Positions 17,256-59,653 of a DNA stretch of 64,000 bases are shown here, in pieces (within the stretch, counting starts at the first letter, position 1; each line of letters opens with the position of its first letter). The stretch lies in the NCBI GenBank assembly GCA_965645245.1, contig OZ287071.1, positions 2,604,001 to 2,668,000 of the forward strand, given 5' to 3'. Below the pieces are notes generated by a model that saw nothing but the letters and a program-made list of their open reading frames with translations, did no database searches and was not told the DNA's origin. The position numbers and the translations under genes were made by a program. This stretch comes from Massalongia carnosa (taxonomy: Eukaryota).

Positions 17256-20164
17256 ATGCCTTTGTTAGATGATGTAGATTTCTTTCATAGCTGTCAACTC
17301 GAGATACACGAAGGCGTAAATGCCGTATTTACATCAACTGAGAATTCTATCTCCGAGTATTCTCGTGCGCAGATTCAGCGAAATAGTGACGCTCGACAGC
17401 GGATTGACCAGAAGAAAAAGAAGCAAGACGCCGTCCATGAGAAGGAGAAGGAGAACGTAGAGATAACTATCTCGGAAGATCTTGCAGACGGCCAAAACAC
17501 AAAATTAGACGCATCCCTCAAGCTCCTCGGCGAAGACGATCAAAAGCTCCTCCTACCTAGCGATGAACTAGAAGAAGACGAAATCCATATTATCGAGACA
17601 ACCATTGACGCACCACAGGGCGGTATCCATCCATTGCAGGATTATCAAATGCAAATTATGCTTCTTGAGCAGCAGAACAAAAAGCGGTTATTAATAGCAA
17701 GACAAGGACAAGACCGAACAGATATTCTATTTGACCAGATGGCTGCTGCAAGAGAAATGAAACGACGAGATCAGAAGAGTGCAACAAAGAAAGAGCAAGT
17801 TTATGCATCGGTGAACCAAATACCCTCTCAGGATCCTAAGGCAACTCAAGTGACATCTAAAATGCCCGCGACGGTTGCCGATACGGGTGCCGATACGGGC
17901 GCTGTCCCTGCCACGAAGAGACAGAAGCGTGGTCATCAACTACAATCAAGCGAAACAGATAAAGTGATGCTGTCAATGGCAGCGTTTTGAATGCGGCTAA
18001 AGCAGGATCGGTTGAGGTCAGTGATCAATGCCTATAAGTCTGGCTAAGTCAAATTCAAGTTTACAAACTGTAATTAGCACATGCCACCTCATTTCGACCT
18101 CCTTTACCAAATTTCTTGCAACACAGACAATCATCCTATGCAAACCTTCCGCGATGCTCCCATTTCGGTCTCACCATTTGACTCTAGATCTTTAAGCTAT
18201 TCGCGTGGTTCTCATCTTAACGGAACGGTCCCTGTGTATGATCTAGAGGCCTTCATGGAAAATGACACAGATGGCATTGCCTTCGTTGTCATTAGAACAG
18301 TTGAATGCTCCGAAGCCTCTGTCCTGATAGCCCGCGCTGGTGGTGCTCTTCGGTGGACTGAAGCCATATATACTAAGTCGAGGATCATAAAGAACACAAT
18401 GCAAGAAATTGCGACATGTTACTTTCAACCCGTTCTCGAAGAGACTAAGACTCCTTACTATAATCGAGCAAAATCCTCTGGCACCAAAGCACCATTTGAG
18501 CAAAATCGGATCGCTCCCGCAGACTTATTTCTCTTCCATCATCGTCATTTGTTGAGAACTCATGCCTTGAATCATTCCGAATCAAAACAATATATTGACG
18601 CTCTCTTTGAGTACATGGATAATCGGTTTGGCATGGAGTTCGAAGAAGCCGATAGCCTCTTCGCACGTGGCATTGTTACCCAAGCGCACATTTTGAACCT
18701 GTTCAGACCAAATGAACTGGTCATAAGTGGAACCTACGGAAAGCCCGTAGCTTTTGTTTTGCAAGAATGGCCAAAGTTGGGTAGTAATGGCTGGCTCACC
18801 CTTTCTTGCTGGTCATTCCAGCCTGATGGCTCTGGCTTCGCTCGCAAACGAAGTATTCTATCTATCCCTCCCATAGAGCCAAAGACTACGAAGATACAAA
18901 ATCTGGTTGCATATCCGCTTCATTTTGCAAATACAGAACTACGAGAGTTAATTCGGAGTCGGGGAGAGAAGCAATGGGAACTTCGTATCACAACACAAAT
19001 CACCTATAGAGGTTGGAATACTAAAAAAGACCAATTCTTTGTAAGTCCAAGGAACATCTAGTTTGTTCGCACATTCCGCTGAACTTCTAGCCCGATGCTA
19101 GATTCATGATAGATCACAAGGTTTATCGCAAAATGCACGAGTACGCTCAAGCATTTCGCTTTGAAAGGCCAACGACAACATATCTATTTGATCGATTGCC
19201 AGCCTACCTTAGCACTGAACAAGAATCCTCAGAAATGCTCTTTCTTTTGATGCCCCCAGACATACATGGATTTTATCTCAACGAGAAGAAGTGGATCAAA
19301 CTCTTTGTTGACTGTACGCACCCTGTATCCTGGAACAAGAAAGCCTATGAAAGGCTAGTGCTCCCGCCTCAAACTAAAGACCTTGTCCGAGCTCTGGTTA
19401 CCGTCCGAACATCTCAAAGGGGAGTCAAACAAGGCCTTGGTGTTGCAGGCAAGCGAACGGACATCACTGGTGGCAAGGGCAATGGCCTGATCATGCTCCT
19501 GCACGGCGGCCCTGGAACTGGCAAAACACTGACAGCAGAAAGTGTTGCGGAGATAGCAGAAATGCCCCTTTATCGAGTGACGTGTGGAGACATAGGAACG
19601 AATGCAGAAGCGGTCGAGCAATATCTTAACACTGTGCTGCACCTGGGAAAGACTTGGAATTGTGTACTTCTATTAGATGAAGCAGATGTATTTCTTGAGG
19701 AGCGGTCAATGGCCGATTTGAAGAGGAACAATCTTGTATCCGTGTTCTTACGCATTCTCGAGTACTACGATGGAATCCTAATTCTGACCAGCAATCGTGT
19801 CGGCATCTTTGACGAAGCCTTCAAGTCCCGGATCCAGGTGGCATTGCATTACGAGAATCTCAACCGGTCCGCTCGGAAAAAGATTTGGGGGAATTTTCTG
19901 GATATGCTCGAGGAAGACGAGGAGAACGTTAACTTTGATGAGATGAAACTCCATCTCGATGACCTTGCTGGAAAAGAGTTGAATGGTCGTCAAATACGCA
20001 ACGTGCTCACAACTGCGAGACAATTGGCCATTTTCAGGAACCAACGTTTGGACTGGGAGCACCTGGAGCAGGCGCTTTCGGTTTCGTCCGACTTCAATGA
20101 GTATTTGAAACGTATGCAAGGCCACACTGATGATCAGAGGGCCAGAGACATTGGCTTGAGATGA
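17256..20164 (+). CDS. Fungal AAA+ ATPase with a long N-terminal region (DUF7025-type)
   Basis: Walker A GGPGTGKT, Walker B LLLDEAD, LRILEYYDGILILTSNR, DEAFKSRI, LNGRQIRN. Intron at 19041-19090. The first join (about 17964-18077) is in frame but unconfirmed. Confidence 0.88.
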
Positions 20165-20236
20165 TTTGCACGAGGGTTATTCTGATTGCTGCCGTACCAA
20201 GACAATCACTTCACACCGACGAACTACACAATCTCT

Positions 20237-22297
20237 TTATTTCCTGAAGCACGCTGTTGGCCGTCGTGGCCTCCGTGATTTCCTCCAATCTCGTGGTTTA
20301 CTAACCTGAATCTTGACACAGGCGTTGGATTGCTCGAGCTCTTTAGCATAAGATCGGCTGACGCTTGATGTGGCTGTCACGATCTTTATATTACCCGACA
20401 GATTCGATCTCAACATGTCCAGCATTTCCAGAGATTCGCTTCGCTCATACGCTGTCGCATGTGCCAGAAGGTCTTCATCCAATGCAATGAATGCATGGCT
20501 GATGCTAGAAAGTAAGCGATTTAGGATAGCAACCCATTCACTAAGACTTGCTGCTTCCCGAAGCTGCTCTACGGTCACTGGAAAAGAACTATCGAGTAGT
20601 CGTTCGGCGCCTACTTGCATTGTTTGCACTATCAACATGCGAATGATGTTTGAGACGCTTATGCGCTGGTCCCTGTAGTCCGCATAGCGCAGGGCCCAAA
20701 TGACGGGCAGGCGATTATCAAGAATGAGATCGATCAGGTCGATCATAAATGTCTTCGCAGCTATGGGAATGTAGGTGTCGATAAGAAGTACGGCGTTGTT
20801 TCTCTGTGAAGTCCACGTCTCCAGTTTTTTGACGTCAGGGAGTGGCAACTTCGTGCGCTCACGACGTCTGTTACGTATGGACCGGCAGAACTGCAGGGAG
20901 TCTCCTGAGGTTGGGAGGAAGTTCCAAAGTGGCAGTGAGAGCATTTGATTGAGGTGGACTCGATTTAGGGTTGCGCGCTGGAAGGAAAAGTCAAGGCGGA
21001 TTTCTTTGTACATGCCTGTTCGCGATGTCCGTTAGCGTCGCTGTCGTTAGCGAAGCGGGCTTGCTCAGGGCATGATAAGACGTGTATGTCTTGCCCTTAA
21101 GCAAACGTACAATCCACTCACAAAGCATCGAATCCTCCATCATCCCAAATTTCGCCTGAAAAAATTTCGCTAACCGCTGATTCTCCACCCTTAGCTCGTT
21201 CATCTCCTGCCTCACCAGCTCCCAATGCCTCGTCCCCTGTACGACCTCCAGTCTCGTGTCCCGTACCTCCGCCTTCAAGGCCACGTCGGCCAGCCGCCCG
21301 ATCTGCTGCGCCTCGGCCGCAATAGCCTCGTACTCATGCCGAAATTTTAGGTCCCACGGCTTGGAGATAGACTTGAGGGCGTGCATGGCGCGGTTGTCTT
21401 TGTACCACTCGAGCGAAGAGAGGAAAAATTTTACGATGTGCGCGTAGAGCCGCGCGACGGTGGTTTGCATTCGCGGGGTTGGGTAGAGGATTAGATGCAG
21501 CGAATGTTGCGGGAGGAGGTCGGCGATTTGGGAGATGGATTTGCTGAGTTTCGAGACTATCTCGGCGTGGTTGGTAATTGCCTTGTGGGTATTAGAGGCT
21601 GTTCGGGATAACGGAGTATTGGGATGCGGCTAGTGCGATAAGGTAGAGGCCATTACGGGAAATCACAATACTCACGATGAACAGAATCTTGAACGTTCCC
21701 CAGGCCAATGAGACATACTAAGGGTGATGTTGGACCATCACGTCGAAGATGTTGCCGTAGTGCACGAGTTTCTCGGATAGGCCGGTCAGCCAGATCCGTG
21801 CTTTGGCTTTGGATTTGCTGAAAGGTGTCGTATGTTTGATGGATACGGAAGCCGCAGTGGTGGGTGCCATTGTTTGGAAGGCGTCGGCTGTGTCTCCGAT
21901 TCGACATTCGTAGGAGGCTTGTGCTTCTTTGAGGCAGCGCTGGACGTCGAACATGGTGTGGTTTGGTGAATGTAGAGCGTTTGGAGCGTCGGTTGGAGGG
22001 AATAGGCTCGCATAGTCTTGAGGTTGGATTATGGTTCGGAGCAGCAGTTTTGCGTGCGCGAGGGTCGTTTGCAGGATTTCTTCCGAGCTGGAACACCCAT
22101 GGGATGTCAGTTGCTTGCTACAGCGGACTCGGCGTGCCTCGTGAAGGAAAAGCGAGAAGCTTGAATGGCCAATGCAGAGTGCATGTGGACACACAATCTT
22201 CGAACCGGCTTTTCGCTCTGAGAAAAAACTCACCTAGACGAGGTATTCGCATTGGAATACCAGCCTGCTATATCGCCAGCTTGATCTGAGAGATCCA
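20237..22297 (-). pseudogene. NACHT-N-terminal (DUF7708-like) helical domain plus degenerate NACHT core; premature TAG
   Basis: Exon 1 MDLSDQAGDIAGWY. YGNIFDVMVQHHP*YVSLAWGTFKILFI has a TAG at 21718-21720; LYPTPRMQTTVARLYAHIVKF follows. The C-terminal part lacks GxxxxGK but keeps a Walker-B-like AFIALD. Confidence 0.7.
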
Positions 22298-22846
22298 TGG
22301 TAGACGGTACTCTTGAAAGTCATACCGTTTATACTTCGTTGCATCCGAATGATGTCGAATGCAAAGCACTCATAGAGTATAGCAATCTTCCACGATGAAA
22401 ATGCAGAAATCGTTCCGAGATTGAGGGTGAAGTTTTCATATGCATTTCAAGAATACGGTCGTTTGTCGAAGCTTCAATGTTGCACAGCCTCATCCGCTAC
22501 GTTCGGATCACTTGTCATGGGGCCACCATCGTTACTCGTAGTTAGTCCTGCAAGGCAAGTCGGCGATGCGCTCGGCGCCACATTTAACATTACGCCACAG
22601 AGCACGATAAAACAAGTTATTGATTCACGATGATGTTTTCTTACTGTAATGAAGGAATATTCACTCGTATTAAACTTATTATTTCTTGTATTGACGATAT
22701 AAACCAGAAAAAGCTTCAAGTTTCATCTAGCTGTTTAGATCTTTAATATCATCAACACATATGATGACTTCTTTTATCCCGTCAATTACTTCGTATTCAT
22801 AAATGTACTCCGTACTAAATTAACAATAACTGTCGACATAAAATAT

Positions 22847-24677
22847 CTATTTCCGCGTAGATCCCGGCCTAGAATCCGGATAAACAAGATTCCAAACCGC
22901 TTTCTCCGTCCCCCCAGGCCTCACATAAGCATTGTCCACAATCAAATCCCGAACCGCACGCGGGACGTGCCCCCTCTCCCGCAGGTGGGGATAAACGGAC
23001 AACAAATAAGCAGCTAGCCCGGCGACCGAGGGAGCGGCAAAAGATGTAGTTCCGCCGGTGATGGTGCGGCCTTCTACCCCCGCGCAGGTCACTTCTCCGG
23101 GTGCCGATACTGTCAGGGCAATTCCCCCGTTGGAGGTCGGTGTTGTATGGCCGTTGGTCAGGACAGCCCCAACAGTGATGATGGGGAATTCGCCGTTGGG
23201 TTTCAGGGTCAGAAGAGCAGGCCATTCGAAGATGTCGGCGTTGGTGGTGGTGGTGGTGGTGGAGAAATACGTGTCGCCTGCGGACACGACTACCACGACT
23301 TGGTAGTCGTCTAGCACCTCCTTTATGAGCAATTCTAGGATATTCAAGTGAAGCGGTTGGAGCGTCGCCCATCCGGACGAGATGGTGACTACGGTGTAGC
23401 CTGGGATAACTTCCCCTAGTTCCACTCGTCGGTCAAGATCGTTGAGTACTTCTCGTAGCAAACTCAGGAACGACTTCGCCCGTAGGGTCATTTCACCTAT
23501 CACCAAGCTTACCTTCTTGGCCACTCCGAAATCGATGCCACCAATCTTCGAGGCAATGCAAGTCGCGTGATCTTCTGTGGTGTCTTTGGTTCTATCCACG
23601 TCCATGCCATAGAGGAAGTGTTTTATCTGGCCAGGGCGAAATTCCGGATGCGCTGTGTCCACGGCTCCATCGAGAGAATATACTGTGATCGTTTCACCAG
23701 CGTTGGAGAAATACGTATACTTTGAGTTTTGCGTCATGACTGAATCCGGAGATGTTGATATGAATGCCAAATCCAGCAGAGAATTTGGCTGCACCACCAC
23801 AAAGCCATTGCGTTTTTCGCGTTGATCCCCCCTTTTCCTCGGCCTGTTGGTGACCTTCCTTGGAGTTGATGGAAATCGATCAGACACAAGCGGTTCATCG
23901 GGGGCAACGCCAAGAACACCCTCCATGGCCCGGATGAGAGTTGTTTGTTCTAACGTCAGCGCGGCGGTCCAGAAAAACACTCCACACTTCCGGACTTCAG
24001 AGGCATGAACCCCTCCAGGGGGTTTCATCTCATTTAGAGACTTGGCAATATTTTCATTTTGTATCGTGCTAGCACAATTAGAAGCGTATATCAGTTGATC
24101 AGTGGCGACATCGCAAGGATCCTGTGAATGTAGGTTATAAGAGCTGTAAACCGCAAAGACTTTAAAGTCTTGGATTTGAAACTTGTCGGATTTCGCTGAT
24201 AATGCAGAGGTGCTGAACAGATAAAAGAACACATACTTTGAGACTCGGAGTCACATCACCAGAATCTTGGAAGGGTACAGGGGTATGATCACACTCGTTG
24301 TCCACAGAAGATCTTTGAGGTGATGATGGTTGATTCTCTAACCCCCCACTCGGGCCAATTATTGGCACTGGCGAATTCAATTCAGGGTCCGCATCTGCCG
24401 GGGAGGCTATACCGGTCTCCGGAGTGGATTCCGGCGGGGGAGTAGTTTCAGGTTCTGCAGGAGGTGCCAAAAAATCAAATAAATCTGATGAGCTAGGAGA
24501 AAGAAACAAGTTCTGAATTACATCCGCTCCAGCGTTTAACAGAGAGCCAACACCATTCCAAATAGCTGGAATGGGCGAGTCCGGCCAAGGTTCTTGACGT
24601 GTAAGAAGACGTGAGGAGGTGACCCGGATAGGGGTTTGGCAGATGAGCAAAACACTGAAAAGAAACAAACCGCTCAT
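22847..24677 (-). CDS. Secreted subtilisin-like serine protease (S8), 2 exons
   Basis: Signal-peptide-like MSGLFLFSVLLIC, Pro-rich linker, phase-0 intron at about 24122-24236, KR processing site. Triad motifs VYSLDG (D), DHATCIASKIGG (H), TTSFAAPSVAGLAAY (S). Confidence 0.85.
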
Positions 24678-40448: not shown

Positions 40449-42160
40449 GGGAATCAATACCGGGACACCCCTTTTCACTACCTTGACACCCCATTTCACT
40501 ACATTAACACCCCCAAGTAAGCTAACCAAATCGGGTATAAATTTCCCTCGGGCGCAGAAATAACTGGAGAAAACATGCTCGATTTGATGAATTCAGGTGT
40601 GTTTTAGACAGTCGTTTGATGCTTTCTCGATGATTATTTCATTGAATTGGGCTTCATTTCGTGTTTACACTTGAAAGGCCTAGAGCAAACCCACTCCATC
40701 TACTTCAATCGATTGAATAGCTTCACCGGAGGCCACCCTTTCACCTTGTGACTGCCCTCTGCCCCGTCCTCGCCCTCGCCCTCGCCCTCGCCCTCGCCCT
40801 CGCCCTCGTCCTCGACCCCGCCCTCGCCCCCACCCTCGCCTCGGAGGCCCATTCAACACCTCCTCGACATGTTCGAACCCTGATAACTCCCGTTGGGTAG
40901 AGTTATCAGCCTCCCGTTGAGCTCTTTCCGATTGTAAACGCATCGCGATTGACGGACGCCCTCGGGGTCGGGCTACTACCTCGGGGTCGCGCACCAATAG
41001 CAAAGGATCGATGACACTTGGAGGTGGTGATTCGTGGCGATAATAAGCCCGATCAAGGGGGCGCTGAAACCACCATTTGATGTGAATGTCGTCGCGCTGA
41101 AGCACATTGGGGGCCGGGCCAGAAAGTCGAACCTAATTGCAATAGAATTAGTACGTTTTCAGGGCTATTTCCTTCAGTTTATCAACTTTCCTGGATTTCA
41201 TGAGCACATGGTAGCCCCATTGTTGCTCGAAATGCCCCGGTGCATAATGAGAGAGGGGTCGTTTGATCCAAAAGACGTTCGTACTGACTATGCACCTTCA
41301 ACAATGCAAAAGGCGTGATATAAGCCCTTACATCGCTGTAAAGAGGTCTTCGTAGTCGGGTAGGAAAGCGCATTTTAGCCTCATCCAGTTTTATCACGTA
41401 CTCTTGATGCTGATTCTTTAGTAACAAATCAATATTGTCAACCACCGTTTTGAGATCACCGGTAGAAAATCCCAACTGATGTTTCAAGACAGCATGGCCC
41501 CCCTCCACCCTAGAGGTAGCAATATTGTCGAAATGAAGAACTTTGTCGACGAATGCCTTGACGAATTTTCGTTTATATGGGGCTAGCCATGTGTCTACCA
41601 GATAGTGCACTTCCGCTGAATGATCATGTGAATAAGCATCATTCAGAGCGTCCCAATTGACCTCATATTCCTCTTCAGTCTTTGAATAAACCACCGCATG
41701 CCACATGCTTTCGAAGGCCATCCAGTCATCGTTGGAATGAGCACTATGTCTAAAAACAGGTTTCCAATGCTCCTGAACATTCCTGTGAATATGCCACAAG
41801 CATAACAAATGACGTGTGTCAGGAAACACACTGTAAATAGCGGCCATGAGGCTAATGTCTCGATCGGTGAGTACTACCTTTGGATAGGAAATATTCAGCA
41901 TTCGATAAAGGGTTTTTAATTGTTGAAGATACCAAAAATAGTCCTCTTTACGTTCCTGACGAAGAAAGGCAAACCCCACATAAAATGAGGTGTTTAGGGC
42001 CGTTGTTCCCATTGTTGATATCAATGGTAATTTGTATCTGTTGGTTTTATAGGTGCAGTCCATGATTAACACGTCGGGGTTGGTCATCAGGGTGCTTTGA
42101 CAGGAATCTTTGCTGAAATAAAGATGTGTTATGCGATCGAGATTGTCTTTGAGATAAAAC
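40449..42160 (-). mobile_element. MULE (Mutator-like) DNA transposon, 5'-truncated; one terminus with subterminal repeats
   Basis: LIMDCTYKTNRYKLPL, VLTDRD, LLCLWHI, TSRVEGGHAVLK, MGLPCAHEI. Frameshifted C-terminus with RPRGRP and (GR)n. GACACCCC.TTTCACTAC repeats at 40464-40510. Confidence 0.85.
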
Positions 42161-42600
42161 GAATTCCTAGATGACTCAGTGATTAATCGATAGTTGTTTG
42201 TGCCTATCGTATTTAGCAGAGTTTTTCTGTTGTCGTTGAGTTTGCAAAACATGATCACATGTTTTGCAGTCTGTTTGTGCCAGCCACATGAGCAGTTCGG
42301 GGACGAGACGTCTGGGACTCGGTGTCTATGTAGGAAGGCGGCTAGGCCTATCTTTTCTGAGCGTATCTGAATGGCTAGCGCGCTCTCCGCTTTGGCTAGA
42401 GTTTCGTGCAATTTGATGCGTTTTTTGGAGAGTGAACCTGATTGTGCCGGGGTGGGAACGCGTGTGCGTTCCTGATATGATCTCCACGAGGCCTGCCATG
42501 CAACTGTGTGTCGTTTTTTTATTTGAGCAGTTATTTTTTTATGAGCGGCGCGTGCCTCCCCTATTTCTCGGGCGAGATTCGGGGGGGATTCGGCCCATGG
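42161..42600 (-). mobile_element. Non-LTR (LINE, Tad1/I-like) ORF2 C-terminal fragment fused in frame to the MULE transposase
   Basis: WQASW...KAESALAIQIRSEKIGLAAFLHRHRVP...CSCGWHKQTAKHVIMFC is the post-RNase H CCHC region typical of fungal LINE ORF2. Confidence 0.75.
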
Positions 42601-42799
42601 TGGATTTGGTGTCGAATCTTCTCTTGATGCCACTGCTTATGGTAAATATAAAATCCTTAATTATAGGATTTTATACTCTAAAGCAAGCTCAACTGCAACA
42701 TCGACAATGTAGTGGCCACTACGAATTTCGATGGAGGTTCCATTGAAGGTACGTTTCCCCAACAGTAAAGATGTGGAGTTCACGAAGTCAAACCTCAGA

Positions 42800-45553: not shown

Positions 45554-46891
45554 CAGTACTAGGCCAAAAGTCTGCGGCCCCGCACCCCACCAACATTTCA
45601 ATCATTCTATTCAATCAACAATCAACCACGTCACGATTGCTGAAATGTCTTGAAACTTTACATAATGATTACATACATACTAAACAAGAATTCCCCCAAA
45701 AATTGATTTTTAATATTTAGTATACCATCCTTCCGACGCTATACACGCTTTTATCCTCCTATTCATGCTCTCTATTAACCTCCTCATCATTTTCACATCT
45801 ATCAACGTCCAGGCTTCTTCTAACGCTTTCCAAAGTACCTCACGAACAGTTTCATCACTGCCGATCACCAAATCTATGTTCGGGTTGACTTGATAGACGA
45901 GCTTTTTGAGCACATACCAAACGTGCTCGATGGGATTTAAATCAGGTGAATAGGGGGGCCAATCGCTGACCTCTATGCCGTTCTCATTGAACCATTCCAT
46001 CACCTTTTTAGCCTTATGTATAGGTGCGTTATCCTGCATGAAAATGAGGCCCGGTTGCCAAATTCCAAGCAGATTATCGTTCAATAATTCCATATATGAG
46101 TTCGCCGAGTACCCCATCTTCTTCGCAGCAAAATCACGAGCCAATTTGTAAAGATTTGACCTGTCATCTTGCGAAAAAGCTGCCCAGACCATGACACTGA
46201 CTCCTTTGCCTTTGGGGACAGGTTGTATCATCTCTTTATTCCATTTTTCTTTCGGCAATCTGAACACCCACTGACGCTGTTTTCCTGACCCCTTTTCCAC
46301 CGAGCACTCATCTGACCATATAACTCTTGACCACTGCTCAAAAGTCCACTCACGCCGCAGCAAGCACCAATCCAATCGTTTCTTGGCCACCTCAGGCGTC
46401 AATAAAGGTCGTTTTTTAGCCACCCAGTTGGTTAAACCATACAGTTTGAGTGCCCGATAAATAGTCGTACGACTGCAGCCCAGCCCCACTTCTAGTTTGA
46501 TTTGTGCATAAGTGATTCGTGGATTGATTCGTGCATGCTTGATGATATAACGTCGATCGCGTTCTGACAGCACTTCAGGCCGTCCAGAACGTGATTTAGA
46601 CACGCCGTCGTTGCGAATTGAGTGCTTCTGAATGGTGCTCTGCACGGTCGATTTAGTGAAATTAAGAGTCTTCCCAATCTCGGTCGGTGTGTGCCCCAAC
46701 GCCTGGGCCCCAACAATCATACCACGTTGATATGGCGTCAATTCAGTGTTACGAGGCCGATTACCACTTATGGGGGTCAAAGAAGCACGAAGCATGGTGA
46801 AATGATGAGGTGGAAGATGGGGGGTTGATGAGTTGAAAACGCGAAATCACGAAAATTACGGGTTGGGCCGCAGACTTTTGGCACGGGACTG
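45554..46891 (-). mobile_element. Complete Tc1/mariner (impala-like) element, 1338 bp, 27-bp TIRs, TA target duplication
   Basis: Left TIR CAGTACTAGGCCAAAAGTCTGCGGCCC (45554-45580); right TIR (46865-46891) reverse-complements to CAGTCCCGTGCCAAAAGTCTGCGGCCC. TA flanks both ends. Confidence 0.95.
45710..46795 (-). CDS. Tc1-family DD34E transposase, intact
   Basis: Paired HTH, RSGRP linker, VIWSDE, FMQDNA, SPDLNPIE; 34 residues between the second D and E. Confidence 0.95.
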   Translation of the reverse strand: MLRASLTPISGNRPRNTELTPYQRGMIVGAQALGHTPTEIGKTLNFTKSTVQSTIQKHSIRNDGVSKSRSGRPEVLSERDRRYIIKHARINPRITYAQIKLEVGLGCSRTTIYRALKLYGLTNWVAKKRPLLTPEVAKKRLDWCLLRREWTFEQWSRVIWSDECSVEKGSGKQRQWVFRLPKEKWNKEMIQPVPKGKGVSVMVWAAFSQDDRSNLYKLARDFAAKKMGYSANSYMELLNDNLLGIWQPGLIFMQDNAPIHKAKKVMEWFNENGIEVSDWPPYSPDLNPIEHVWYVLKKLVYQVNPNIDLVIGSDETVREVLWKALEEAWTLIDVKMMRRLIESMNRRIKACIASEGWYTKY

Positions 46892-49200: not shown

Positions 49201-51530
49201 GAAGAAGTCAAACATTTCGATGACGCTGTCGCCAAAATAAGAAAACAAGGAAAAGTGTTCATATTAGTAAAAAGGGATTTCTCCGATGCCTTTCGCCATA
49301 TACCCGTGGCTAAAAGCGACTGGTGGTTGCTGGGATTTCAATGGGATAATGTTTACTGGACGGAGCGCTTTCTACCTTTCGGCTTGCACACGTCTCCTTT
49401 TCTATTCGATTTGCAAAGGGGATAAATTGGATGTGTTTACAAAATCAACATGATGTGCTTCATTATCTAGATGATTTCTTGGCAGTTTGCCGCACTAATC
49501 CCGAAGCGGAAGCTTTCACTCGGTACTTCTTCGATCTTTGCAAAGACCTTGGAATCGCAGTCAAGAAAAATAAAACTGGTCATGTGATCGATTTCTTAGG
49601 CATTGAATTGGACACTATGCTCATGGAAGCATGGCTACCCACCAGACAAACTGCACAAAGCCAAAGACCTCGTCAAACAGGCCTTGCAAAAATCATCGAT
49701 TAGAAGGGAGGAATTAGACTCCTTGGTGGAATATTTGTCATTCGCAGCTAAAGTGGTAGTGCCAGGGAGAGCTTTCCTCCGACGTCTTTTTAACGCAAAA
49801 GCCATGTCTCGTGGGCGTCATATTTATATTAACGAGAATATCAAAGCCGACCTGCAGTGGTGGCATCTTTTTTTACCTAAATGGAATGGCATTCGCATGT
49901 TAGACCGTCCTCGCGAGACATTTCGTCTTTGTACGGACGTATCGGGGTACGGCATTGGGGCCTACATCCTAGTGGAGGATCATACCAGTTTCACCATGCC
50001 CGCTGAGCATGCACTTTCTGAACGTTTCACGTCTCGGCTTAGGCCAATTCACATCAATGTCAAAGAAATGACAGCGATACTACACGCTTTGCGTAAATGG
50101 CTCCCCCTTTGTGCAGGGAGCCATGTGATTTTCCACTGTGACCACTTTGCTGACACGTCACGAATAAGGAAATCATCTATTCGTGGAAACGCTATGCGGC
50201 CTCTTCGGGCAATCGCAATGCTGACCGCTATTCATGATATTCGGATTGAAATACGTTGGATCCTAACAAAGTCAAATGAGCTCGCTGACCTCCTATCGCG
50301 GGGCAAATTGGAGAAAATCGCTAACAAATGGCCCAATTTACAGGAACTTCTACTCAAATCCTAGCACGCGACCCTCCCGAAAGCTGGTATAGCGAAATAA
50401 TTCTATCCTGACCAGCAGCTAGATACCTGTGGTGGGGCTTGGCAGTCAAAACCCGCAGTCTGTATGACACAGGGAGAAGAAGCTATGTAACACACTGCAG
50501 AATATCAATGAACGCGACTTCATTTCCGGCAACCATACAGACCTTGTCATCTTGGATAGCGTTGCTAGGAGAACACAAAATACAGCCCAAAACCATCAAG
50601 GCCTATTTAGCCGGAGTTCGGTCCAGCCAAATCGACACGGGCTTTGAGGATCTAGAAACGTTTCACCATCCCGTACTAAATAGAATCATTGCTAGCATAA
50701 AGCGAAAGAATGGCGAAGCCGACAAGAAAGAGCGAATGCCCATTACGAAAAACATACTCCTTCGTTTAGTGAAACGATTGGACTTAGCCGACAACGTGCA
50801 GGCCACTCTACACGCAGCATACTGTCTAGCATTCGCAGGATTTCTTCGCGCAGGCGAATTTACGTACACTATCAGAGACCTAACAGACCCAAGCTTCGAA
50901 TCATGGCATTTAACTAGGAAATCCGTCCACTTAGAAGCAGATAAGCTGTTCCTCTCCTTGCCTGCGTCCAAAACCGACCCCTTTCGTTGAGGCATTACGC
51001 TAACGATAGCCGCATCAGGGGACGAGGCCTGCGCGGTAAAATCCATTCGTAATATGATCACCCGGTTTCCACTACCTGCAACCTCCCCTTTATTCTATAA
51101 ACAAAAGGCTTTCACACGCGAATATTTGATCACCGCGATGCGATCAGGGCTTAAGAGCTTAGGCATAACAGGTAATTATTCAGGTCACTCTTTCTGAAGA
51201 GGTGCAGCGACGTCGGCCAAGGAAGCCGGTCTTAGCGAGAACGACATTTAATTACTAGGCCGGTGGAAGTCAGACTCCTACAAGCTTTATATCCAAACGC
51301 ATCAATCCCACATCTTAGCCACCTCACGCCGTTTTCAATACCCTCCTCAGCCTCCTAAACAGCATCGCCGGGCGAGCCGTTTCCATCTTGGGCTTGGGAG
51401 TATCCACCGCGATCTGCACCAAGGCCCGAAAGGGGGCGCTAGGTAGAGGCGCCGGCGAGAGTGACGGCGCCAGCGAGGTGCAGATTGCTGTGTTTCCGCC
51501 AACCTAGAAATAGAAGCAATACGAGGTCAC
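49200..51530 (+). mobile_element. Ngaro/DIRS-type tyrosine-recombinase retrotransposon, 5'-truncated and decayed
   Basis: RT (KRDFSDAFRHIPV, LPFGL, HYLDDFL), RNase H (TDVSGYGIG, INVKEM, NELADLLSR) and YR (AFAGFLRAGEF, SKTDPF, GHSF*RGAAT, LGRWKSDSYKLY). Frameshifts and TGA stops at 50988 and 51195. Confidence 0.9.
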
Positions 51531-54889: not shown

Positions 54890-57800
54890 TCAATGTACTT
54901 TTCGTCGCACAGTTCGAATTAGTCGAGTTAATCGATTGTTTTCTGCGGTATACTTTGAGGCATGATTCGTGTCAGATGCATCAGTGAATCTATTTAACTG
55001 TTTAGAGTCGCAGCTTTTCAGTTGATTTAGGGCCTCAGCTGTCTCCCAGTGTTTGGATCCTAGTGTACTTGTATAACCTTGTACGACAAGCTTGAAGTGA
55101 TGTGTCGCATCCTCAAACATAGATCTTTTCTTGTACAAAAATCCTAAATTATATCTTGTACCTAAGGATCGTTTATGCTCAGAACCCCAGGCCTTATCAT
55201 AGCCTGTCAGTGCCCGCAGATACATTTCTTCGGCTTCTTTCATCTTGCCTTGATCGGAGTACAGAATTCCTAAATTGTTGACGGTGTCGAGCGTCGACGT
55301 GTGCTCGACGCCCCAGGCCTTTTCCTTGCCTGTCAGTGCCCGCAGATACATTTCTTCGGCTTCTTTCATCTTGCCTTGATCGGAGTACAGAATTCCTAAA
55401 TTGTTGACGGTGTCGAGCGTCGACGTGTGCTCGACGCCCCAGGCCTTTTCCTTGCCTGTCAGTGCCCGCAGATACATTTCTTCGGCTTCTTTCATCTTGC
55501 CTTGATCCTTGTACAGAATTCCTAAATTGTTGACGGTGTCGAGCGTCGACGTGTGCTCGACGCCCCAGGCCTTTTCCTTGCCTGTCAGTGCCCGCAGATA
55601 CATTTCTTCGGCTTCTTTCATCTTGCCTTGATTCTTGTACAGATTTCCTAAATTGTTGACGGTGTTGAGCGTCGACGTGTGCTCGACGCCCCAGGCCTTT
55701 TCGTAGCCTGTCAGTGCCCGCAGATACATTTCTTCGGCTTCTTTCATCTTGCCTTGATCCTTGTACAGAATTCCTAAATTGTTGACGGTGTCGAGCGTCG
55801 ACGTGTGCTCGACGCCCCAGGCCTTTTCCTTGCCTGTCAGTGCCCGCAGATACATTTCTTCGGCTTCTTTCATCTTGCCTTGATCCTTGTACAGAATTCC
55901 TAAATTGTTGACGGTGTCGAGCGTCGACGTGTGCTCGACGCCCCAGGCCTTTTCGTAGCCTGTCAGTGCCCGCAGATACATTTCTTCGGCTTCTTTCATT
56001 TTGCCTTGATTCCTGTACAGAACTCCTAAATTGTTGACGGTGTTGAGCGTCGACGTGTGCTCGATGCCCCAGGCCTTTTCGTAGCCTGTCAGTGCCCGCA
56101 GATACATTTCTTCGGCTTCTTTCATTTTGCCTTGATTCCTGTACAGAATTCCTAAATTGTTGACGGTGTTGAGCGTCGACGTGTGCTCGACGCCCCAGGC
56201 CTTTTCGTAGCCTGTCAGTGCCCGCAGATACATTTCTTCGGCTTCTTTCATCTTGCCTTGATTGGAGTACATAAGTCCTAAATTGTTGACGGTGTCGAGC
56301 GTCGACGTGTGCTCGACGCCCCAGGCCTTTTCCTTGCCTGTCAGTGCCCGCAGATACATTTCTTCGGCTTCTTTCATCTTGCCTTGATCGAAGTACATAA
56401 GTCCTAAATTGTTGACGGTGTCGAGCGTCGACGTGTGCTCGACGCCCCAGGCCTTTTCCTTGCCTGTCAGTGCCCGCAGATACATTTCTTCGGCTTCTTT
56501 CATCTTGCCTTGATCGAAGTACATAAGTCCTAAATTGTTGACGGTGTCGAGCGTCGACGTGTGCTCGACGCCCCAGGCCTTTTCCTTGCCTGTCAGTGCC
56601 CGCAGATACATTTCTTCGGCTTCTTTCATTTTGCCTTGATTCCTGTACAGAATTCCTAAATTGTTGACGGTGTTGAGCGTCGACGTGTGCTCGACGCCCC
56701 AGGCCTTTTCCTTGCCTGTCAGTGCCCGCAGATACATTTCTTCGGCTTCTTTCATCTTGCCTTGATTCTTGTACAGATTTCCTAAATTGTTGACGGTGTC
56801 GAGCGTCGACGTGTGCTCGACGCCCCAGGCCTTTTCGTAGCCTGTCAGTGCCCGCAGATACATTTCTTCGGCTTCTTTCATCTTGCCTTGATTGAAGTAC
56901 AGAATTCCTAAATTGTTGACGGTGTTGAGCGTCGACGTGTGCTCGACGCCCCAGGCCTTTTCCTTGCCTGTCAGTGCCCGCAGATACATTTCTTCGGCTT
57001 CTTTCATCTTGCCTTGATCGGAGTACAGACGACCTAATTCATGACATGCGTCGCTAAGAGGTAAAGGATATATCTCGTTAACAAAGCTTTCTTGTATGCG
57101 ATGCTTCAGTAATGGGAAAACACGATCGCAATGTGGCAGAAGACGTCGCGATGTGAAGGAATAATTAGGCAAAGTCTCTAACGGCACAGCGGATGCGACA
57201 ATAATCATGGCAAGCCAGCTCATATCAGTCTTCTCTTTTTCAAATGCGTGAAGTGACCATTGATGAAGCACAGGATGCATAAAGAAGGAAGATGATTCAG
57301 TTTTTGCATCGATGAAGGAATATTCCAAAAGTAATCGTATGCATTCTTTAAATTCAAGTTCATCGCCTGCACATCTGATATACCAATCAGGCATCTCGTT
57401 GACAATATCAAGATCTAGCGCAGATACAAAGAGCTCATACCAGAGATCTTGGTTGTCAAGAAACGCCCACAGCATTAAAATGTTCGCTGCGTCCTTACTT
57501 TGCGCCTGAAGATGGTTGAAAGATAACATCCATGTTGTCAAAATACTGCAATCTGCACCTGCTTGAATTGTGAGGCTTTGCTGCTTTTTCATCAATTTTT
57601 CCCATGTGTGATTATATGACTTAATGTACTCAAACACGTTTGTGCCAGTTTTTCGCATGTATGAGCCGGCTTGATTAATCGCTAGAGGGAGGCCTTGAAG
57701 TAGATTTACAATCTCGAATAATCCTAATAAGTCTCAGATTTCAGATAATGCCTGAGCAAGTATGCTTCTTATTGCACTGACCTTGCATAGATTGCCCAAG

Positions 57801-59653
57801 ACAATTCTCGAGAATACTTTCTCCTTGCAATTGATTGACCGGTTTCACTTTCATATCCGTACCCAAATGCAATAAACTGGCTAGTCGAGAGGTGATAAGG
57901 ATAGATCCTTGATCTGCCGTTGGGAAAAAGTCTTGAACATTGAAGGCTTCCGGATCTTCAATTGATCCGAAAAACTCTCGATCCACGTTGTCAAAAATTA
58001 GCAGCCACTGATCATTTGATGACTGTGATAACCAATTGAGCACATCCTTAACGATTTCATCCACATCCGTGTTCGTCTTCGTGCTTTTCTCTTGTGAATA
58101 ATTTCTGCTGTTTTCAGATATCTGATGCTGTGGTAGTCGACCGGCAAGGTCAGCAATGCTTCGCTTCAGTCTCTCCTTTGTCGAGCCGTCGACCCAAAAG
58201 ACTGCGGTGTAGTTCTTGTGATGTTGTCGAGCGAATTCAACGGAGAGCTGAGTCTTTCCAATCCCGCCAAGTCCGTGAAGAATGAATACTTTGCGACGCA
58301 TTGAATCTATGGTAGTGGGAAGTAAAATCCGAGTCAATCGAGTCATCTCTGCGTCTCGAGCTACAAAATGGTTCATCACAGGAATGCCCTGAAGACTGAA
58401 TTCAACATGAAACGGTTTTTTTTCGCTGATTTCAACACGTGCTGATAAAAAGTCAGAGAAGCCTTGAAAAACGTGAAGTCTAAAGTAAGAAAGATGAATC
58501 CTACAGTGATACTGTTCCTCGACTCTTTGAGACGCATTCTGAATCATTCTCAGAACCTCTGGCTTTATCAAGAGAAAATTTTCATCTTCAGGGTCATTGA
58601 ATTTGTTCAACCCCGAGTGATCCGTAGTGAGGTATATGGTCCTTTTGCTAAGCAAAGAAGCTGACTGATAATCAACGAACTATGAGTCATAAGCTTTCAT
58701 CCCAGTTGAGCATGAAGACAGAGATTATGAGACCTGAGTTTGCCAAGGTCCATATGAACCTTTCTTGTCTTCATAAAAGCAAACGATATCAACATTGACG
58801 TAACTTGTTTCGAAGTCTCGCGCTACATCATGAAGAGTAGGGCTGTTTTTTTTCAAAGACTCCAATAACGTCTTATCATGTCCTACTGCTTGAGCAAGCC
58901 ATGTACCATATACTGCAGCGTCACTTCCTTGATGTGGCGTTCCAAGAAAGATGATCCCAGTCGTGGACAGTTTGATGTCTCTAAAATCTTTACCATGATT
59001 GGCTAATACTAGAGCCTATGAAGAGGACCTTAGTAATTAAAAAATTTAGTGTCAAGCTAGACCGACCTGTTTAATAACTAAACCTCCAAGGCTATGCCCA
59101 ATAAAAATCAAGGGTCGACGACGTTGCTATATAGACTATTAGGAAGGACAAATGAGGAATTCCCGCGATCGCTTTACTAACTGTTTCACTTGACCGATTC
59201 TGATAAAGAACATTAAGAAACTGCTCCCCACATTTGCGGAGACTTGTTTTGATGTCTGCTCTTCGCCAGTCTGACTCGTAACTGTATGTCGCAATTCGAG
59301 CATTTGAAGCGAAGTTCGGCAGCAAGTCTCGAAGCCACATGACTTCAGCAGTGTCGGATGTCGTTTGAGCGGCATCGGGATGTTTGTCAGTCTGAGCACG
59401 GCTATTTAAGAACTTGAATCGATGAGCTTTTCTAGACTTCGGTTGCTTCGCAGAATTTGGCCTCGAGACCCATGTGTAATATGGATCAGCACCGAGACCT
59501 TGAACTGCAATAACGCTTAAACGCTTGTCAGTGATGCTGCGACTCCATGAAGAATCGTTTGTCTTACTCTACTTCGGGTCCGTTACAGTCTTGCTCGCCA
59601 CTGACCCAAATATTAAGACCTGAGGCCTTTACTGTGTCTCTGCTGCACATCAT
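54890..59653 (-). CDS. Fungal NLR: alpha/beta-hydrolase (SesB-like), NB-ARC and TPR domains; apparently intact
   Basis: VIAVQGLG, WLRDLLP, FIGHSLGGLVIKQ, GIIFLGTPHQGS, DHSGLNKF; P-loop HGLGGIGKTQL, WLLIFDNVD, ILITSR, GLPLAI; TPR array. The N-terminal exons I spliced by hand stay in frame. Confidence 0.92.
55150..57040 (-). repeat. 15 near-identical 126-bp (42-aa) TPR coding repeats
   Basis: Unit LGxxYxxQGKMKEAEEMYLRALTG[K/Y]EKAWGVEHTSTL[D/N]TVNN. Confidence 0.97.

What the first reader, a model, noticed from the sequence alone, without database searches (positions are those of the whole stretch)
17256..22297. Tail-to-tail AAA+ ATPase and P-loop-less NACHT-like gene: candidate two-component fungal conflict module
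Seen: an intact AAA+ ATPase ends 72 bp from a convergent gene. That gene has the helical domain normally found in front of fungal NACHT NLRs, but its NTPase core has lost GxxxxGK (it reads VLLIDTYIPIAAKTF) and it has no sensor repeats. The pair sits between conserved genes (CCCH protein, CSN4). Known: prokaryotic conflict systems couple an inactive STAND domain to an active AAA+ (MoxR-type) ATPase, and fungal NLR functions are often split over adjacent genes. Inference: the ATPase may remodel or regulate the inactive STAND partner as an immune or incompatibility unit. I do not know of a description of this pair.
Basis: partly seen in the sequence, partly recalled or inferred. Interest (0 to 1): 0.72.

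Follow-up and report, generated by a model that had tools for sequence, protein, structure and literature searches.

The report
Fungal dead-NLR and AAA ATPase pair
A fungal gene for an NLR-like protein whose nucleotide-binding domain has lost its ATP-binding loop sits beside a working AAA+ ATPase gene in most distant relatives examined, which points to an undescribed two-gene unit, although the NLR-like gene in this genome carries a premature stop codon.

Summary
A 914-aa DUF7025-AAA-AAA_lid_13 ATPase gene (+, 17256-20164) ends 72 nt from a convergent four-exon gene (-, 22298-20237). That gene encodes DUF7708, a coiled coil, a 258-aa C-terminal domain and an Arg-rich tail.

The C-terminal domain folds with high confidence (pLDDT 93) as a STAND/ORC-type nucleotide-binding domain (Avs3, ZAR1, CED-4, MalT, Apaf-1; Z about 10). 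None of 173 family members has a Walker A motif at the P-loop site. None of 83 complete members has sensor repeats.

The pairing is not chance. An AAA homologue or its remnant lies directly adjacent in 18 of 23 metagenome loci and in 4 of 4 named genomes with positional locus tags. The orientation is convergent in some clades and divergent in others. Colletotrichum gene models join the two. The flanking genes differ from locus to locus.

Close relatives carry a nonsense allele or a deletion of the AAA gene instead.

The function (conflict, cell death or incompatibility, with the ATPase acting on the dead-NBD protein) remains an inference. Three literature searches on this pair and its families found no paper.

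The parts
17256..17963 (+). AAA gene exon 1: poorly conserved, charged N-terminal region (236 aa) holding the motif LQDYQMQIMLLEQQNKKRL
   Evidence: blastp to the N-termini of AAA homologues P0163, P0157, P0155 and P0177. Reading frame and intron boundaries checked. No Pfam family found.
18078..19040 (+). AAA gene exon 2 (321 aa). DUF7025 lies at about 18648-18929.
   Evidence: Pfam PF22942, E 2.7e-13. 44-68% identical to the 14 closest homologues in blastp.
19091..20164 (+). AAA gene exon 3 (357 aa plus stop). AAA domain at about 19493-19846 and AAA_lid_13 at about 19859-20122. Walker A reads GGPGTGKT, Walker B LLLDEAD, and the pore loop reads GDIGT.
   Evidence: Pfam. Nearest solved chains are NVL, VAT, Rpt2, Rix7 and Msp1. 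Motif census of 120 homologues. Invariant columns in the alignment.
20165..20236 (.). 72-nt spacer between the two convergent stop codons
   Evidence: The spacer is about 83 nt in L001 and L004-L006 and about 220 nt in L007.
20237..21015 (-). NLR-like gene exon 4: conserved pre-NBD helices (CRSIRNRRR motif), the P-loop-less STAND-type nucleotide-binding domain (about 20276-20806) and the Arg-rich tail (about 20240-20293). The vestigial Walker A site YIPIAAKT is at 20753-20776. The invariant Walker-B-like Asp179 is at 20477-20479.
   Evidence: 277 representative homologues. AF2 model with pLDDT 93. Foldseek and VIA matches. Family census. Alignments.
21122..21581 (-). NLR-like gene exon 3: second half of DUF7708 (to about 21267) and the long coiled coil
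   Evidence: Pfam PF24809, E 6.1e-19. Helix 230-293 in the model of ortholog P0284.
21676..22087 (-). NLR-like gene exon 2: N-terminal helices and the start of DUF7708
   Evidence: Pfam PF24809, E 6.1e-06. Alignment with orthologs.
21718..21720 (-). Premature in-frame TAG, codon 145 of 571, in place of the conserved Glu of HHPEYVSL
   Evidence: The codon is GAG or GAA in 19 of 19 loci where the motif was located. The stretch is identical in high-depth contigs of runs X1 and X3, which are probably the source sample.
22234..22298 (-). NLR-like gene exon 1 (MDLSDQAGDIAGWYSNANTSS)
   Evidence: Matches the N-termini of P0290, P0292 and P0286 in the alignment. Splice boundaries checked.

Best explanation
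The two genes form a conserved, co-inherited two-gene module of filamentous ascomycetes.

The first partner is an NLR derivative. It has a Goodbye-like/NACHT_N-like helical N-domain (DUF7708), a long coiled coil, and a STAND-type nucleotide-binding domain. That domain has lost its P-loop throughout the family but keeps the Walker-B Asp. It has no winged-helix part and no sensor repeats, and it ends in an Arg-rich tail.

The second partner is a catalytically intact single-ring, classical-clade AAA+ ATPase with a DUF7025 N-region.

Most likely mechanism (inferred, not shown): the dead-NBD protein is a latent adaptor or executioner. It is built like MLKL, with a helical bundle joined to a pseudo-enzyme. 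The AAA+ supplies, in trans, the ATP-driven step that the dead NBD can no longer perform. It would either release or oligomerise the partner, or take it apart. The partner's basic tail may be engaged by the ATPase's unusual acidic, non-aromatic pore loop (GDIG).

The unit behaves as a dispensable accessory (conflict, cell-death or allorecognition) locus. In nature either partner can be lost.

In this genome the NLR-like gene has a single fresh nonsense codon, so the module is probably inactive here.

My confidence by tier: functionally linked pair about 0.85; conflict or cell-death role about 0.45; ATPase acts directly on the partner about 0.35.
For: SHOWN

Adjacency
- An AAA homologue or its remnant lies next to the C-domain gene in 18 of 23 metagenome loci that were found with the C-domain alone.
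- Nine loci are convergent (L001-L009) and nine are divergent (L010, L012-L014, L016, L018-L021).
- Collapsing near-identical loci leaves about 13 distinct lineages.
- Consecutive locus tags occur in 4 of 4 named genomes where both tags are known: Lepraria neglecta, Brigantiaea leucoxantha, Neocucurbitaria sp. and Alectoria sarmentosa.
- Two ENA pairs share a contig length.
- Colletotrichum models P0262 and P0269 carry DUF7708 plus DUF7025-AAA-lid in one protein. hhalign of A1 against P0262 gives probability 100.

Not ordinary synteny
- None of the window's other neighbours occurs in any locus.
- The flanks hold different ordinary genes and no transposase.

Co-divergence
- Pairwise identities of the two partners correlate at Spearman 0.91. 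None of 2000 label permutations reaches that value.

Fold
- The model has pLDDT 93.
- VIA-align: Avs3 Z 10.5, ZAR1 10.4, CED-4 10.3, MalT 10.2, Apaf-1 9.8.
- Foldseek: ORC/Cdc6, MalT, Dark and CED-4.

Dead P-loop and missing sensor
- 0 of 173 members have GxxxxGK[ST] at the P-loop site.
- Asp179 is invariant.
- 0 of 83 complete members have more than 60 residues after the domain.
- 71 of 83 have at least 8 Lys/Arg in the last 30 residues.

Live ATPase
- Walker A is present in 118 of 120 homologues and hhhDEAD in 118 of 120.
- Sensor-1 and Arg-finger columns are invariant.

Loss-of-function polymorphism
- The window has the TAG.
- L005 and L006 carry TGT>TGA in the AAA gene, whereas L004 is intact, with 24 differences in 4 kb.
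- L003 is L004 with a deletion of about 3.0 kb that removes the AAA gene.

LEADS ONLY
- Pfam NPHP3_N hits below threshold in 10 of 72 members.
- Atlas neighbours carry NPHP3_N, NACHT, Goodbye or NACHT_N.
- The MLKL N-domain matches at Z 8.5 over model residues 56-252.
- Passages of PMC9815663 say that Goodbye-like domains share a four-helix-bundle core with HeLo and MLKL.
Against: - No direct evidence of binding, co-expression or any phenotype was obtained.
- No RNA run is listed for this organism.
- The window's own C-domain hits no Pfam family.
- hhalign against the window's NB-ARC gene found nothing.
- The fold matches do not separate NACHT from ORC/Cdc6 or TnsC.
- The helical N-domain match to MLKL is in the range the tool calls non-specific.
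- The pair is not universal.
  - L017, 89% identical to L010, has an AT-rich block (GC 13-36%) where L010 has the AAA gene.
  - Four further loci were too short to test.
  - For Rhizodiscina lignyota, the only AAA homologue listed lies on another contig.
- The Colletotrichum 'fusions' join the two parts at different points, and one also carries a HAD domain. They may be merged gene models of tandem neighbours.
- The correlation includes near-duplicate loci and is partly expected from shared descent.
- The AAA family is far larger than the partner family: 3613 proteins at E<=1e-40. Many of its members presumably work without such a partner.
Confidence: 0.5

Rival explanations
1. Housekeeping chaperone and adaptor pair. 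The DUF7708/dead-NBD protein is a dedicated cofactor or substrate adaptor of a classical AAA+ unfoldase that works in ordinary protein quality control, membrane-protein extraction or nuclear processes. In that case the basic tail is a nuclear localisation signal. There is no role in conflict or cell death.
For: The nearest solved relatives of the ATPase are general unfoldases (NVL/Rix7, VAT, Rpt2, Msp1). The flanks of the loci hold ordinary genes. No sensor domain is present. Arg-rich tails are also typical nuclear signals (established knowledge).
Against: - Taxonomic occurrence is patchy.
- Recent nonsense and deletion alleles occur in either partner among close relatives. This argues for dispensability.
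- The non-ATPase partner is built from NLR parts: DUF7708 resembles Goodbye/NACHT_N, and the C-domain is a STAND nucleotide-binding domain.
Confidence: 0.25
2. Toxin-antidote (addiction or meiotic-drive-like) pair. The DUF7708 helical-bundle protein is constitutively toxic, and the AAA+ continuously disassembles or neutralises it. Tight linkage is then selected.
For: Linkage is tight and kept through changes of orientation. The N-domain is of the executioner type, though these are leads only. The genomic location varies.
Against: L003 lacks the AAA gene, yet all detectable parts of the DUF7708 gene remain open. L005 and L006 carry an AAA nonsense allele beside an open partner gene. A constitutive toxin should not survive the loss of its antidote. 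No transposase or other drive-like context is present.
Confidence: 0.1
3. Chance or relic neighbours. The two genes only happen to lie side by side, as a remnant of ancestral gene order.
For: Both families are common in Pezizomycotina. The AAA family has 3613 proteins at E<=1e-40.
Against: - An AAA homologue or its remnant is adjacent in 18 of 23 loci and in 4 of 4 named genomes.
- This spans C-domain identities from 29% to 77% and two orientations.
- No other neighbour of the window is retained.
- Only one stray AAA-like fragment was seen elsewhere in about 227 kb of locus sequence.
Confidence: 0.03

Closest known systems
Fungal NACHT NLRs with Goodbye-like or NACHT_N N-termini (NWD / HET-E/D type)
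   Same: - The N-terminal helical domain is of the same superfamily by Atlas leads. Pfam NACHT_N gives weak hits in 4 of 72 members.
- The nucleotide-binding domain is of STAND type.
- Pfam NPHP3_N, the family that covers the P-loop half of these NLRs, hits 10 of 72 members near threshold.
- Frequent pseudogenisation matches what is reported for Podospora NLRs (passages of PMC13449251).
   Different: - No Walker A in any of 173 members.
- No winged-helix or helical arm.
- No WD40, ANK or TPR sensor.
- A long coiled coil lies between the N-domain and the NBD.
- An Arg-rich tail is present.
- An AAA+ neighbour is nearly always present.
- NLR surveys that require GxxxxGK[ST] would exclude this family (PMC13449251 passage).
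Bacterial MoxR-vWA-iSTAND ternary conflict systems (Kaur, Burroughs, Iyer, Aravind, eLife 2020, PMC7159879; passages read)
   Same: A catalytically inactive STAND domain carries an N-terminal effector or adaptor domain and is encoded beside an active AAA+ ATPase. The function is predicted, not proven, to lie in conflict or cell death.
   Different: - The ATPase here belongs to the classical AAA clade, with its own DUF7025 N-region and lid. It is not MoxR.
- No vWA protein was found among the window's larger ORFs.
- There are two genes, not three.
- The genes are eukaryotic, contain introns and have separate promoters.
MLKL (four-helix bundle plus pseudokinase), as a working analogy only
   Same: A helical-bundle N-domain is joined through a long helix to a dead enzyme-like regulatory domain. 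The MLKL N-domain matched model residues 56-252 (Z 8.5, rmsd 3.3 A, 114 residues aligned). PMC9815663 links Goodbye-like domains to HeLo and MLKL.
   Different: The dead domain is a P-loop NTPase fold, not a kinase. The structural match is in the non-specific range for helical bundles. No activating kinase is known; an AAA+ ATPase is the candidate regulator instead.
Fungal DUF7025-AAA-AAA_lid_13 ATPases (annotated 'AAA family ATPase', 'Fidgetin-like protein 1' or 'ATAD3' in GenBank records)
   Same: The window's ATPase is a full member, with all three Pfam domains above their cut-offs.
   Different: The two searches on the families' names and Pfam accession numbers found no paper. The link to a DUF7708/dead-NBD neighbour seems not to have been noted.

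Membership tests
NACHT/STAND NTPases (functional NLR nucleotide-binding domain) | Alpha/beta nucleotide-binding fold of the STAND/AAA+ type | tested here: met
   AF2 model with pLDDT 93. VIA-align: Avs3 Z 10.5 (185 aa, 3.8 A), ZAR1 10.4, CED-4 10.3, MalT 10.2, NRC2 10.0, Apaf-1 9.8. Foldseek: ORC/Cdc6, MalT, Dark, CED-4, E 8e-5 to 2e-3. ORC/Cdc6 and TnsC score equally well, so the clade is not resolved.
NACHT/STAND NTPases (functional NLR nucleotide-binding domain) | Walker A P-loop GxxxxGK[ST] | tested here: not met
   0 of 173 family members have it at the P-loop site. The single pattern match, in P0051, lies in the C-terminal tail. The window reads YIPIAAKT, a vestige that keeps Lys-Thr but has lost both Gly residues.
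NACHT/STAND NTPases (functional NLR nucleotide-binding domain) | Walker B hhhhD | tested here: met
   FIALDED in the window. Asp179 is the only invariant column across 72 sequences.
NACHT/STAND NTPases (functional NLR nucleotide-binding domain) | Helical and winged-helix domains after the NBD, and a C-terminal sensor (WD40, ANK, TPR or LRR) | tested here: not met
   The model ends with strand 232-236 and a short tail. 0 of 83 members that reach the domain end have more than 60 residues after it; the median is 10.
NACHT/STAND NTPases (functional NLR nucleotide-binding domain) | Significant match to Pfam NACHT (PF05729) or NPHP3_N (PF24883) | tested here: inconclusive
   The window domain hits no family. 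NPHP3_N hits 10 of 72 members; the best, P0090, scores E 4.5e-5 and 24.1 bits against a cut-off of 24.8. Atlas neighbours carry NPHP3_N in 15-26% of members.
DUF7708 (PF24809) | Profile match above the gathering score | tested here: met
   68.8 bits and 26.6 bits on the two exons, against a cut-off of 25. Orthologs score up to 6.8e-63.
Classical-clade AAA ATPases (PF00004) | Walker A, Walker B DExx, sensor 1, and the Arg finger in the second region of homology | tested here: met
   GGPGTGKT, LLLDEAD, TSNR and DEAFKSRI are present in the window. These columns are invariant or nearly so in 46 homologues. Walker A is present in 118 of 120 and Walker B in 118 of 120. The assignment of motif names is from established knowledge.
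Classical-clade AAA ATPases (PF00004) | Aromatic-hydrophobic-Gly pore loop 1 | tested here: not met
   The window reads CGDIGT. GDIGT is the commonest form (52 of 120) and the T-C-G-D columns are nearly invariant. The position was assigned by my own manual alignment to p97 and Vps4 from recall, not by a tool.
Fungal DUF7025-AAA-AAA_lid_13 family | All three Pfam domains in order | tested here: met
   PF22942 50.5 bits, PF00004 67 bits, PF23232 48.9 bits, all above their cut-offs.
Bacterial MoxR-vWA-iSTAND ternary systems | MoxR-clade AAA+ ATPase | tested here: not met
   The best Pfam family is AAA PF00004. AAA_5 scores only E 0.023. The nearest solved chains are NVL, VAT, Rpt2, Rix7 and Msp1.
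Bacterial MoxR-vWA-iSTAND ternary systems | vWA-domain third component | tested here: inconclusive
   No vWA family was found among the six ORFs of the pair or the 22 larger ORFs of the window, nor among 67 flank ORFs of seven loci. Short or heavily spliced genes were not scanned.
Amyloid-signalling NLR/effector gene pairs (NWD2/HET-S type) | A short amyloid motif shared by the two neighbouring proteins | not tested
   No motif search was run. The architecture differs: no NLR with a short N-terminus is present.

The most novel reading that the evidence does not exclude
This is a eukaryotic counterpart of the bacterial 'inactive STAND plus AAA+' conflict systems, that is, a split NLR.

- A Goodbye/MLKL-like executioner is held by a dead nucleotide-binding domain.
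- It is armed or disarmed by its own dedicated classical AAA+ unfoldase.
- The unfoldase grips the partner's Arg-rich C-terminal tail with an acidic, non-aromatic pore loop.
- The DUF7025 N-region of the ATPase serves as the sensor.
- The nonsense and deletion alleles of either partner seen among close relatives mark it as a polymorphic allorecognition or immune locus.
Probability: 0.2. Interest if true: 0.85.

Novelty: new variant of a known kind. Interest (0 to 1): 0.64.

Why it matters
Fungal NLR catalogues are built on an intact P-loop, so a whole family of P-loop-less NLR derivatives is invisible to them. This family has 277 representatives at 50% clustering.

Such proteins are held next to a live AAA+ ATPase across at least three classes of ascomycetes and through changes of gene orientation. 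That gives a concrete, testable two-protein system for asking how a dead NOD can still be switched.

It also gives a first functional lead for three Pfam families of unknown function (DUF7708, DUF7025, AAA_lid_13).

It would extend the 'inactive STAND plus AAA+' theme, so far only predicted in multicellular bacteria, to eukaryotes.

Tried and rejected
- Whole genome. None is held for this window, so no paralogue census in the window's own genome was possible.
- Complex prediction. The Brigantiaea cognate pair (AAA residues 52-736 with the C-domain, residues 304-561) gave 'no answer', score 0.01. This counts neither for nor against binding. The hexameric ring with the tail in its pore exceeds the size limit.
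- Search for DUF7708-bearing long NLRs. P0284 residues 90-300, longer proteins only, gave no hit at E<=1e-5 among 666 candidates. The tool calls this weak evidence, so the claim that DUF7708 normally precedes NACHT rests on Atlas leads and on recall.
- hhalign of A2 against the window's own NB-ARC exon gave probability 4.8, which is no evidence.
- A sequence-profile search of the PDB with A1 returned only Beclin-2 coiled-coil matches (E 0.004-0.1). I take these as coiled-coil noise.
- Foldseek on the full-length P0284 model gave nothing at E<=1e-3.
- Expression. No RNA holder is listed.
- State of the TAG codon in the 98.8% relative X4. The difference table was cut (25 rows not shown), so it is unknown.
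- Mobile-element idea. No transposase or recombinase was found among 67 flank ORFs of seven loci. The window's own transposon genes lie 19 kb or more away.
- RIP as the cause of the stop. GAG>TAG is a transversion, which is not a RIP-type change (inference).
- The first attempt to scan metagenomes with A1 failed because the alignment was too diverse. It was repeated with the closer alignment A2.
- Earlier notes of this scan. There are none on this genome or on look-alike sequence.

Full report
WHAT IS THERE

The window is fungal. Its genes contain introns, and the closest named homologues of its ATPase come from lichen-forming ascomycetes (Viridothelium virens 88%, Trypethelium subeluteriae 89%).

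On the + strand, three exons give a 914-codon reading frame without internal stops: 17256-17963, 18078-19040 and 19091-20164. Pfam finds DUF7025, AAA and the 'fungal AAA+ ATPase lid' AAA_lid_13, all above their cut-offs. Exon 1 has no Pfam family. It is part of the gene because it aligns with the N-termini of four close homologues (P0163, P0157, P0155, P0177).

On the - strand, four exons with three GTGAGT..AG introns give 571 codons: 22298-22234, 22087-21676, 21581-21122 and 21015-20237. They encode an N-terminal helical region, DUF7708, a long coiled coil, a 258-residue C-terminal domain and an Arg-rich tail.

The two stop codons are 72 nt apart. However, an unassigned ORF and an S8 subtilase gene lie between them and the pair.

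Codon 145 of the - gene is TAG (21720-21718). It sits in the most conserved motif of DUF7708, which here reads HHP*YVSLAWG.

- In 19 of 19 metagenome loci where the motif could be located, that codon is GAG or GAA.
- All named orthologs in the alignment have Glu at this position.
- Nothing else in the gene is damaged.
- Contigs of two runs cover the whole 5.2-kb stretch without a single difference, at word depths 431 and 840. They are probably from the sample the window was assembled from, so they rule out a low-coverage error but are not independent evidence.
- A 98.8% identical contig from a lichen metagenome (X4) covers the site, but the difference table was cut, so its state there is unknown.

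The NLR-like gene of this genome is thus most likely a very recent pseudogene. The ATPase gene is intact.

THE C-TERMINAL DOMAIN

A search of 1.84 billion representatives found 277 relatives at E<=1e-3 and 100 at E<=1e-10. Full-length members are 515-617 aa and share one architecture: DUF7708, coiled coil, this domain, basic tail.

With a 72-sequence alignment, AlphaFold2 gives a confident model: pLDDT 93, pTM 0.89, a five-stranded alpha/beta core.

- An all-against-all structural search puts STAND and initiator-type AAA+ domains on top: Avs3 Z 10.5, Cdc6/Orc1 10.5, ZAR1 10.4, TnsC 10.4, CED-4 10.3, MalT 10.2, NRC2 10.0, a STAND-TPR protein 9.9, Apaf-1 9.8.
- Foldseek agrees, with ORC/Cdc6, MalT, Dark and CED-4.
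- The ortholog P0284, modelled full-length, gives the same list.

At the sequence level:
- Pfam NPHP3_N is the family that covers the P-loop half of NPHP3 and fungal NACHT proteins. It hits 10 of 72 members just under threshold.
- Atlas neighbours carry NPHP3_N or NACHT.
- The window's own domain hits nothing.

The P-loop is absent in the whole family. In 173 members, no GxxxxGK[ST] occurs at the P-loop site; the one pattern match lies in a tail. The window reads YIPIAAKT, which looks like a Walker A that kept Lys-Thr and lost both glycines. The Walker-B-like Asp179 is the only invariant column.

The domain is also the end of the protein. Of 83 members that reach the domain end, none has more than 60 further residues, and 71 have at least 8 Lys/Arg in the last 30.

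'P-loop-less, sensor-less STAND-type NBD' is therefore a family trait, not decay in this genome. NACHT-specific membership could not be resolved.

THE PAIRING

I looked for relatives of the C-domain alone in metagenome contigs and obtained 23 loci. Only afterwards did I ask what lies beside them.

- tblastn with the window's ATPase, plus an HMM of 120 ATPase homologues, finds a DUF7025-AAA gene or its remnant directly adjacent in 18 of the 23 loci.
- In the nine closer loci (L001-L009, C-domain 42-74% identical) the arrangement is convergent, as in the window. The spacers are about 83 to 220 nt.
- In nine more distant loci (27-34% identical: L010, L012-L014, L016, L018-L021) the ATPase lies upstream on the other strand, head to head.
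- Of the five loci without an ATPase, four have too little sequence on the expected side. L011 and L015 are 93-97% identical to L012, where the ATPase lies beyond their ends. L022 and L023 are short.
- The fifth, L017, is 89% identical to L010 but has an AT-rich block (GC 13-36%, no ORF of 80 aa or more) where L010 has the ATPase.
- Several loci are near-duplicates. About 13 distinct lineages remain.

Named genomes tell the same story. In all four species for which both proteins appear with positional locus tags from one assembly, the tags are consecutive:
- Lepraria neglecta OEA41_002439/002440
- Brigantiaea leucoxantha Q9190_005469/005468
- Neocucurbitaria sp. Nn.00g101100/101110
- Alectoria sarmentosa ASARMPREDX12_007126/007125

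For Rhizodiscina lignyota, the only listed ATPase homologue (57% identity) is on another contig. One search lists only the best 120 of 3613 proteins, so this is uninformative.

In three Colletotrichum records one protein model carries DUF7708 followed by DUF7025-AAA-lid. A profile comparison aligns the family with P0262 from the N-terminus into the first half of the dead NBD (probability 100). The models join the parts at different points, and one also carries a HAD domain. I read them as tandem neighbours or a possible fusion. Either way, this is a third arrangement in a third class, the Sordariomycetes.

This is not ordinary synteny. None of the window's other neighbours is found in any locus. 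The flanks of seven loci hold unrelated ordinary genes and no transposase (ZIP transporter, GNAT, MAPEG, PAP2, aldehyde dehydrogenase, MFS, ankyrin and TPR proteins).

The divergences of the two partners go together. Spearman correlation is 0.91 over 19 pairs, and none of 2000 permutations reaches it. This figure includes near-duplicates and is partly expected from common descent.

THE ATPASE

Its catalytic motifs are intact and conserved. Walker A is present in 118 of 120 homologues and hhhDEAD in 118 of 120. The sensor-1 and Arg-finger columns are invariant. The nearest solved relatives are classical-clade unfoldases (NVL/Rix7, VAT, Rpt2, Msp1), not MoxR.

The stretch that I align by hand with pore loop 1 reads CGDIGT and is nearly invariant. 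It has no aromatic residue and contains an Asp. That alignment is my own and rests on recall of p97 and Vps4.

LOSS-OF-FUNCTION ALLELES

The window has the TAG in the NLR-like gene. Three metagenome loci are alleles of one locus, 97-99.6% identical over their shared blocks:
- L004 has both genes open.
- L005 and L006 have TGT>TGA at a nearly invariant Cys of the ATPase.
- L003 has a clean deletion of about 3.0 kb that removes the ATPase except for its last ~50 codons. The partner gene stays open.

Either partner can therefore be lost without the other. This fits a dispensable two-part system and argues against a toxin-antidote pair.

HOW IT MOST LIKELY WORKS (INFERENCE)

DUF7708 groups with Goodbye and NACHT_N clusters in the Atlas. 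Passages of PMC9815663 state that Goodbye-like domains share a four-helix-bundle core with HeLo and MLKL cell-death domains. The MLKL N-domain does match the model, at Z 8.5, but in a range that the tool calls non-specific for helical bundles.

I therefore read the protein as a helical-bundle adaptor or executioner held by a dead NBD. The neighbouring AAA+ would supply the ATP-dependent step in trans. The Arg-rich tail and the acidic pore loop suggest a point of engagement.

Nothing here shows binding. The one complex prediction gave no answer, and no RNA data exist.

COMPARISON WITH WHAT IS KNOWN

Kaur et al. 2020 (PMC7159879; passages read) describe bacterial MoxR-vWA-iSTAND ternary systems with effector or Death-like domains fused to an inactive STAND domain. 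The fungal pair shares that theme. It differs in having a different AAA+ clade, no vWA component and only two genes.

Two earlier notes of this scan describe prokaryotic pairs of a working ATPase with a dead ATPase-like domain. I did not check them.

Literature searches:
- Searches for DUF7708, DUF7025, AAA_lid_13 and their Pfam accession numbers returned no paper.
- 'Goodbye-like' with 'AAA+' and 'fungal' returned none.
- 'Heterokaryon incompatibility' with 'AAA ATPase' and 'NACHT' returned one unrelated bacterial paper.
- Subscription journals and supplements were not searched.

VERDICT

The module reading is well supported, and the functional reading remains open. I class it as a new variant of a known kind: an NLR-derived two-gene system with the inactive-STAND-plus-AAA+ theme.

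Noticed in passing
window 22847-24250 (-): An S8 subtilase gene with a long N-terminal extension lies about 550 nt upstream of the NLR-like gene, on the same strand. It is not found beside the pair in any other locus.
   Followed up: partly
window 54890-58679 (-) and 61517-62320 (-): A conventional NLR: an NB-ARC/AAA_16 exon followed by a 947-aa TPR_10/TPR_12 array. An ORF with kinase-like matches lies further upstream.
   Followed up: no
window 41182-42636 (-), 45710-46846 (-), 49600-50364 (+): A cluster of transposon remains: a MULE transposase, a Tc1/mariner-type DDE_3 transposase, and an RT-RNase H fragment.
   Followed up: no
window 17637-17686 (+): The 50 nt that encode ..LQDYQMQIMLLEQQN.. 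also match other high-depth contigs of runs X1, X3 and X4, with 7 mismatches. The motif is therefore encoded elsewhere in the genome. 11 of 120 ATPase homologues carry the motif. Its role is unknown.
   Followed up: partly
L003, L004, L005, L006 (metagenome loci): Three allelic states of one locus occur in closely related fungi. L004 has both genes open. L005 and L006 have an ATPase nonsense codon (TGT>TGA). L003 has the ATPase removed by a deletion of about 3.0 kb.
   Followed up: yes
proteins P0157, P0158, P0283-P0293, P0274: Copies from Teloschistales lichens (Brigantiaea, Letrouitia, Seirophora, Teloschistes) are much closer to the window and to Pleosporales copies than copies from Lecanorales are. 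The C-domain is 65-73% identical in the first group, against 39-41% for Alectoria and Lepraria. The cause is either old paralogy with differential loss or transfer between lineages.
   Followed up: no
proteins P0258, P0262, P0269 (Colletotrichum): Gene models join DUF7708 to DUF7025-AAA-lid in one protein, at different junctions, and one also has a HAD domain. They are either merged models of tandem genes or a real fusion.
   Followed up: partly
proteins P0208 and P0223 (Verticillium longisporum): Two DUF7025-AAA paralogues lie five locus tags apart on one contig (BN1723_009104 and BN1723_009099). The ATPase family may itself be clustered.
   Followed up: no
L017:1-2500: An extremely AT-rich block (GC 13-36%) without ORFs of 80 aa or more abuts the DUF7708 gene. 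The 89% identical locus L010 has the ATPase gene in that position. It looks like a RIP-degraded insertion.
   Followed up: partly
L007:14256-15955 (-): A TPR_12-containing ORF lies just beyond the ATPase gene, and a 29-residue fragment like the ATPase's P-loop region lies at its 3' end.
   Followed up: no
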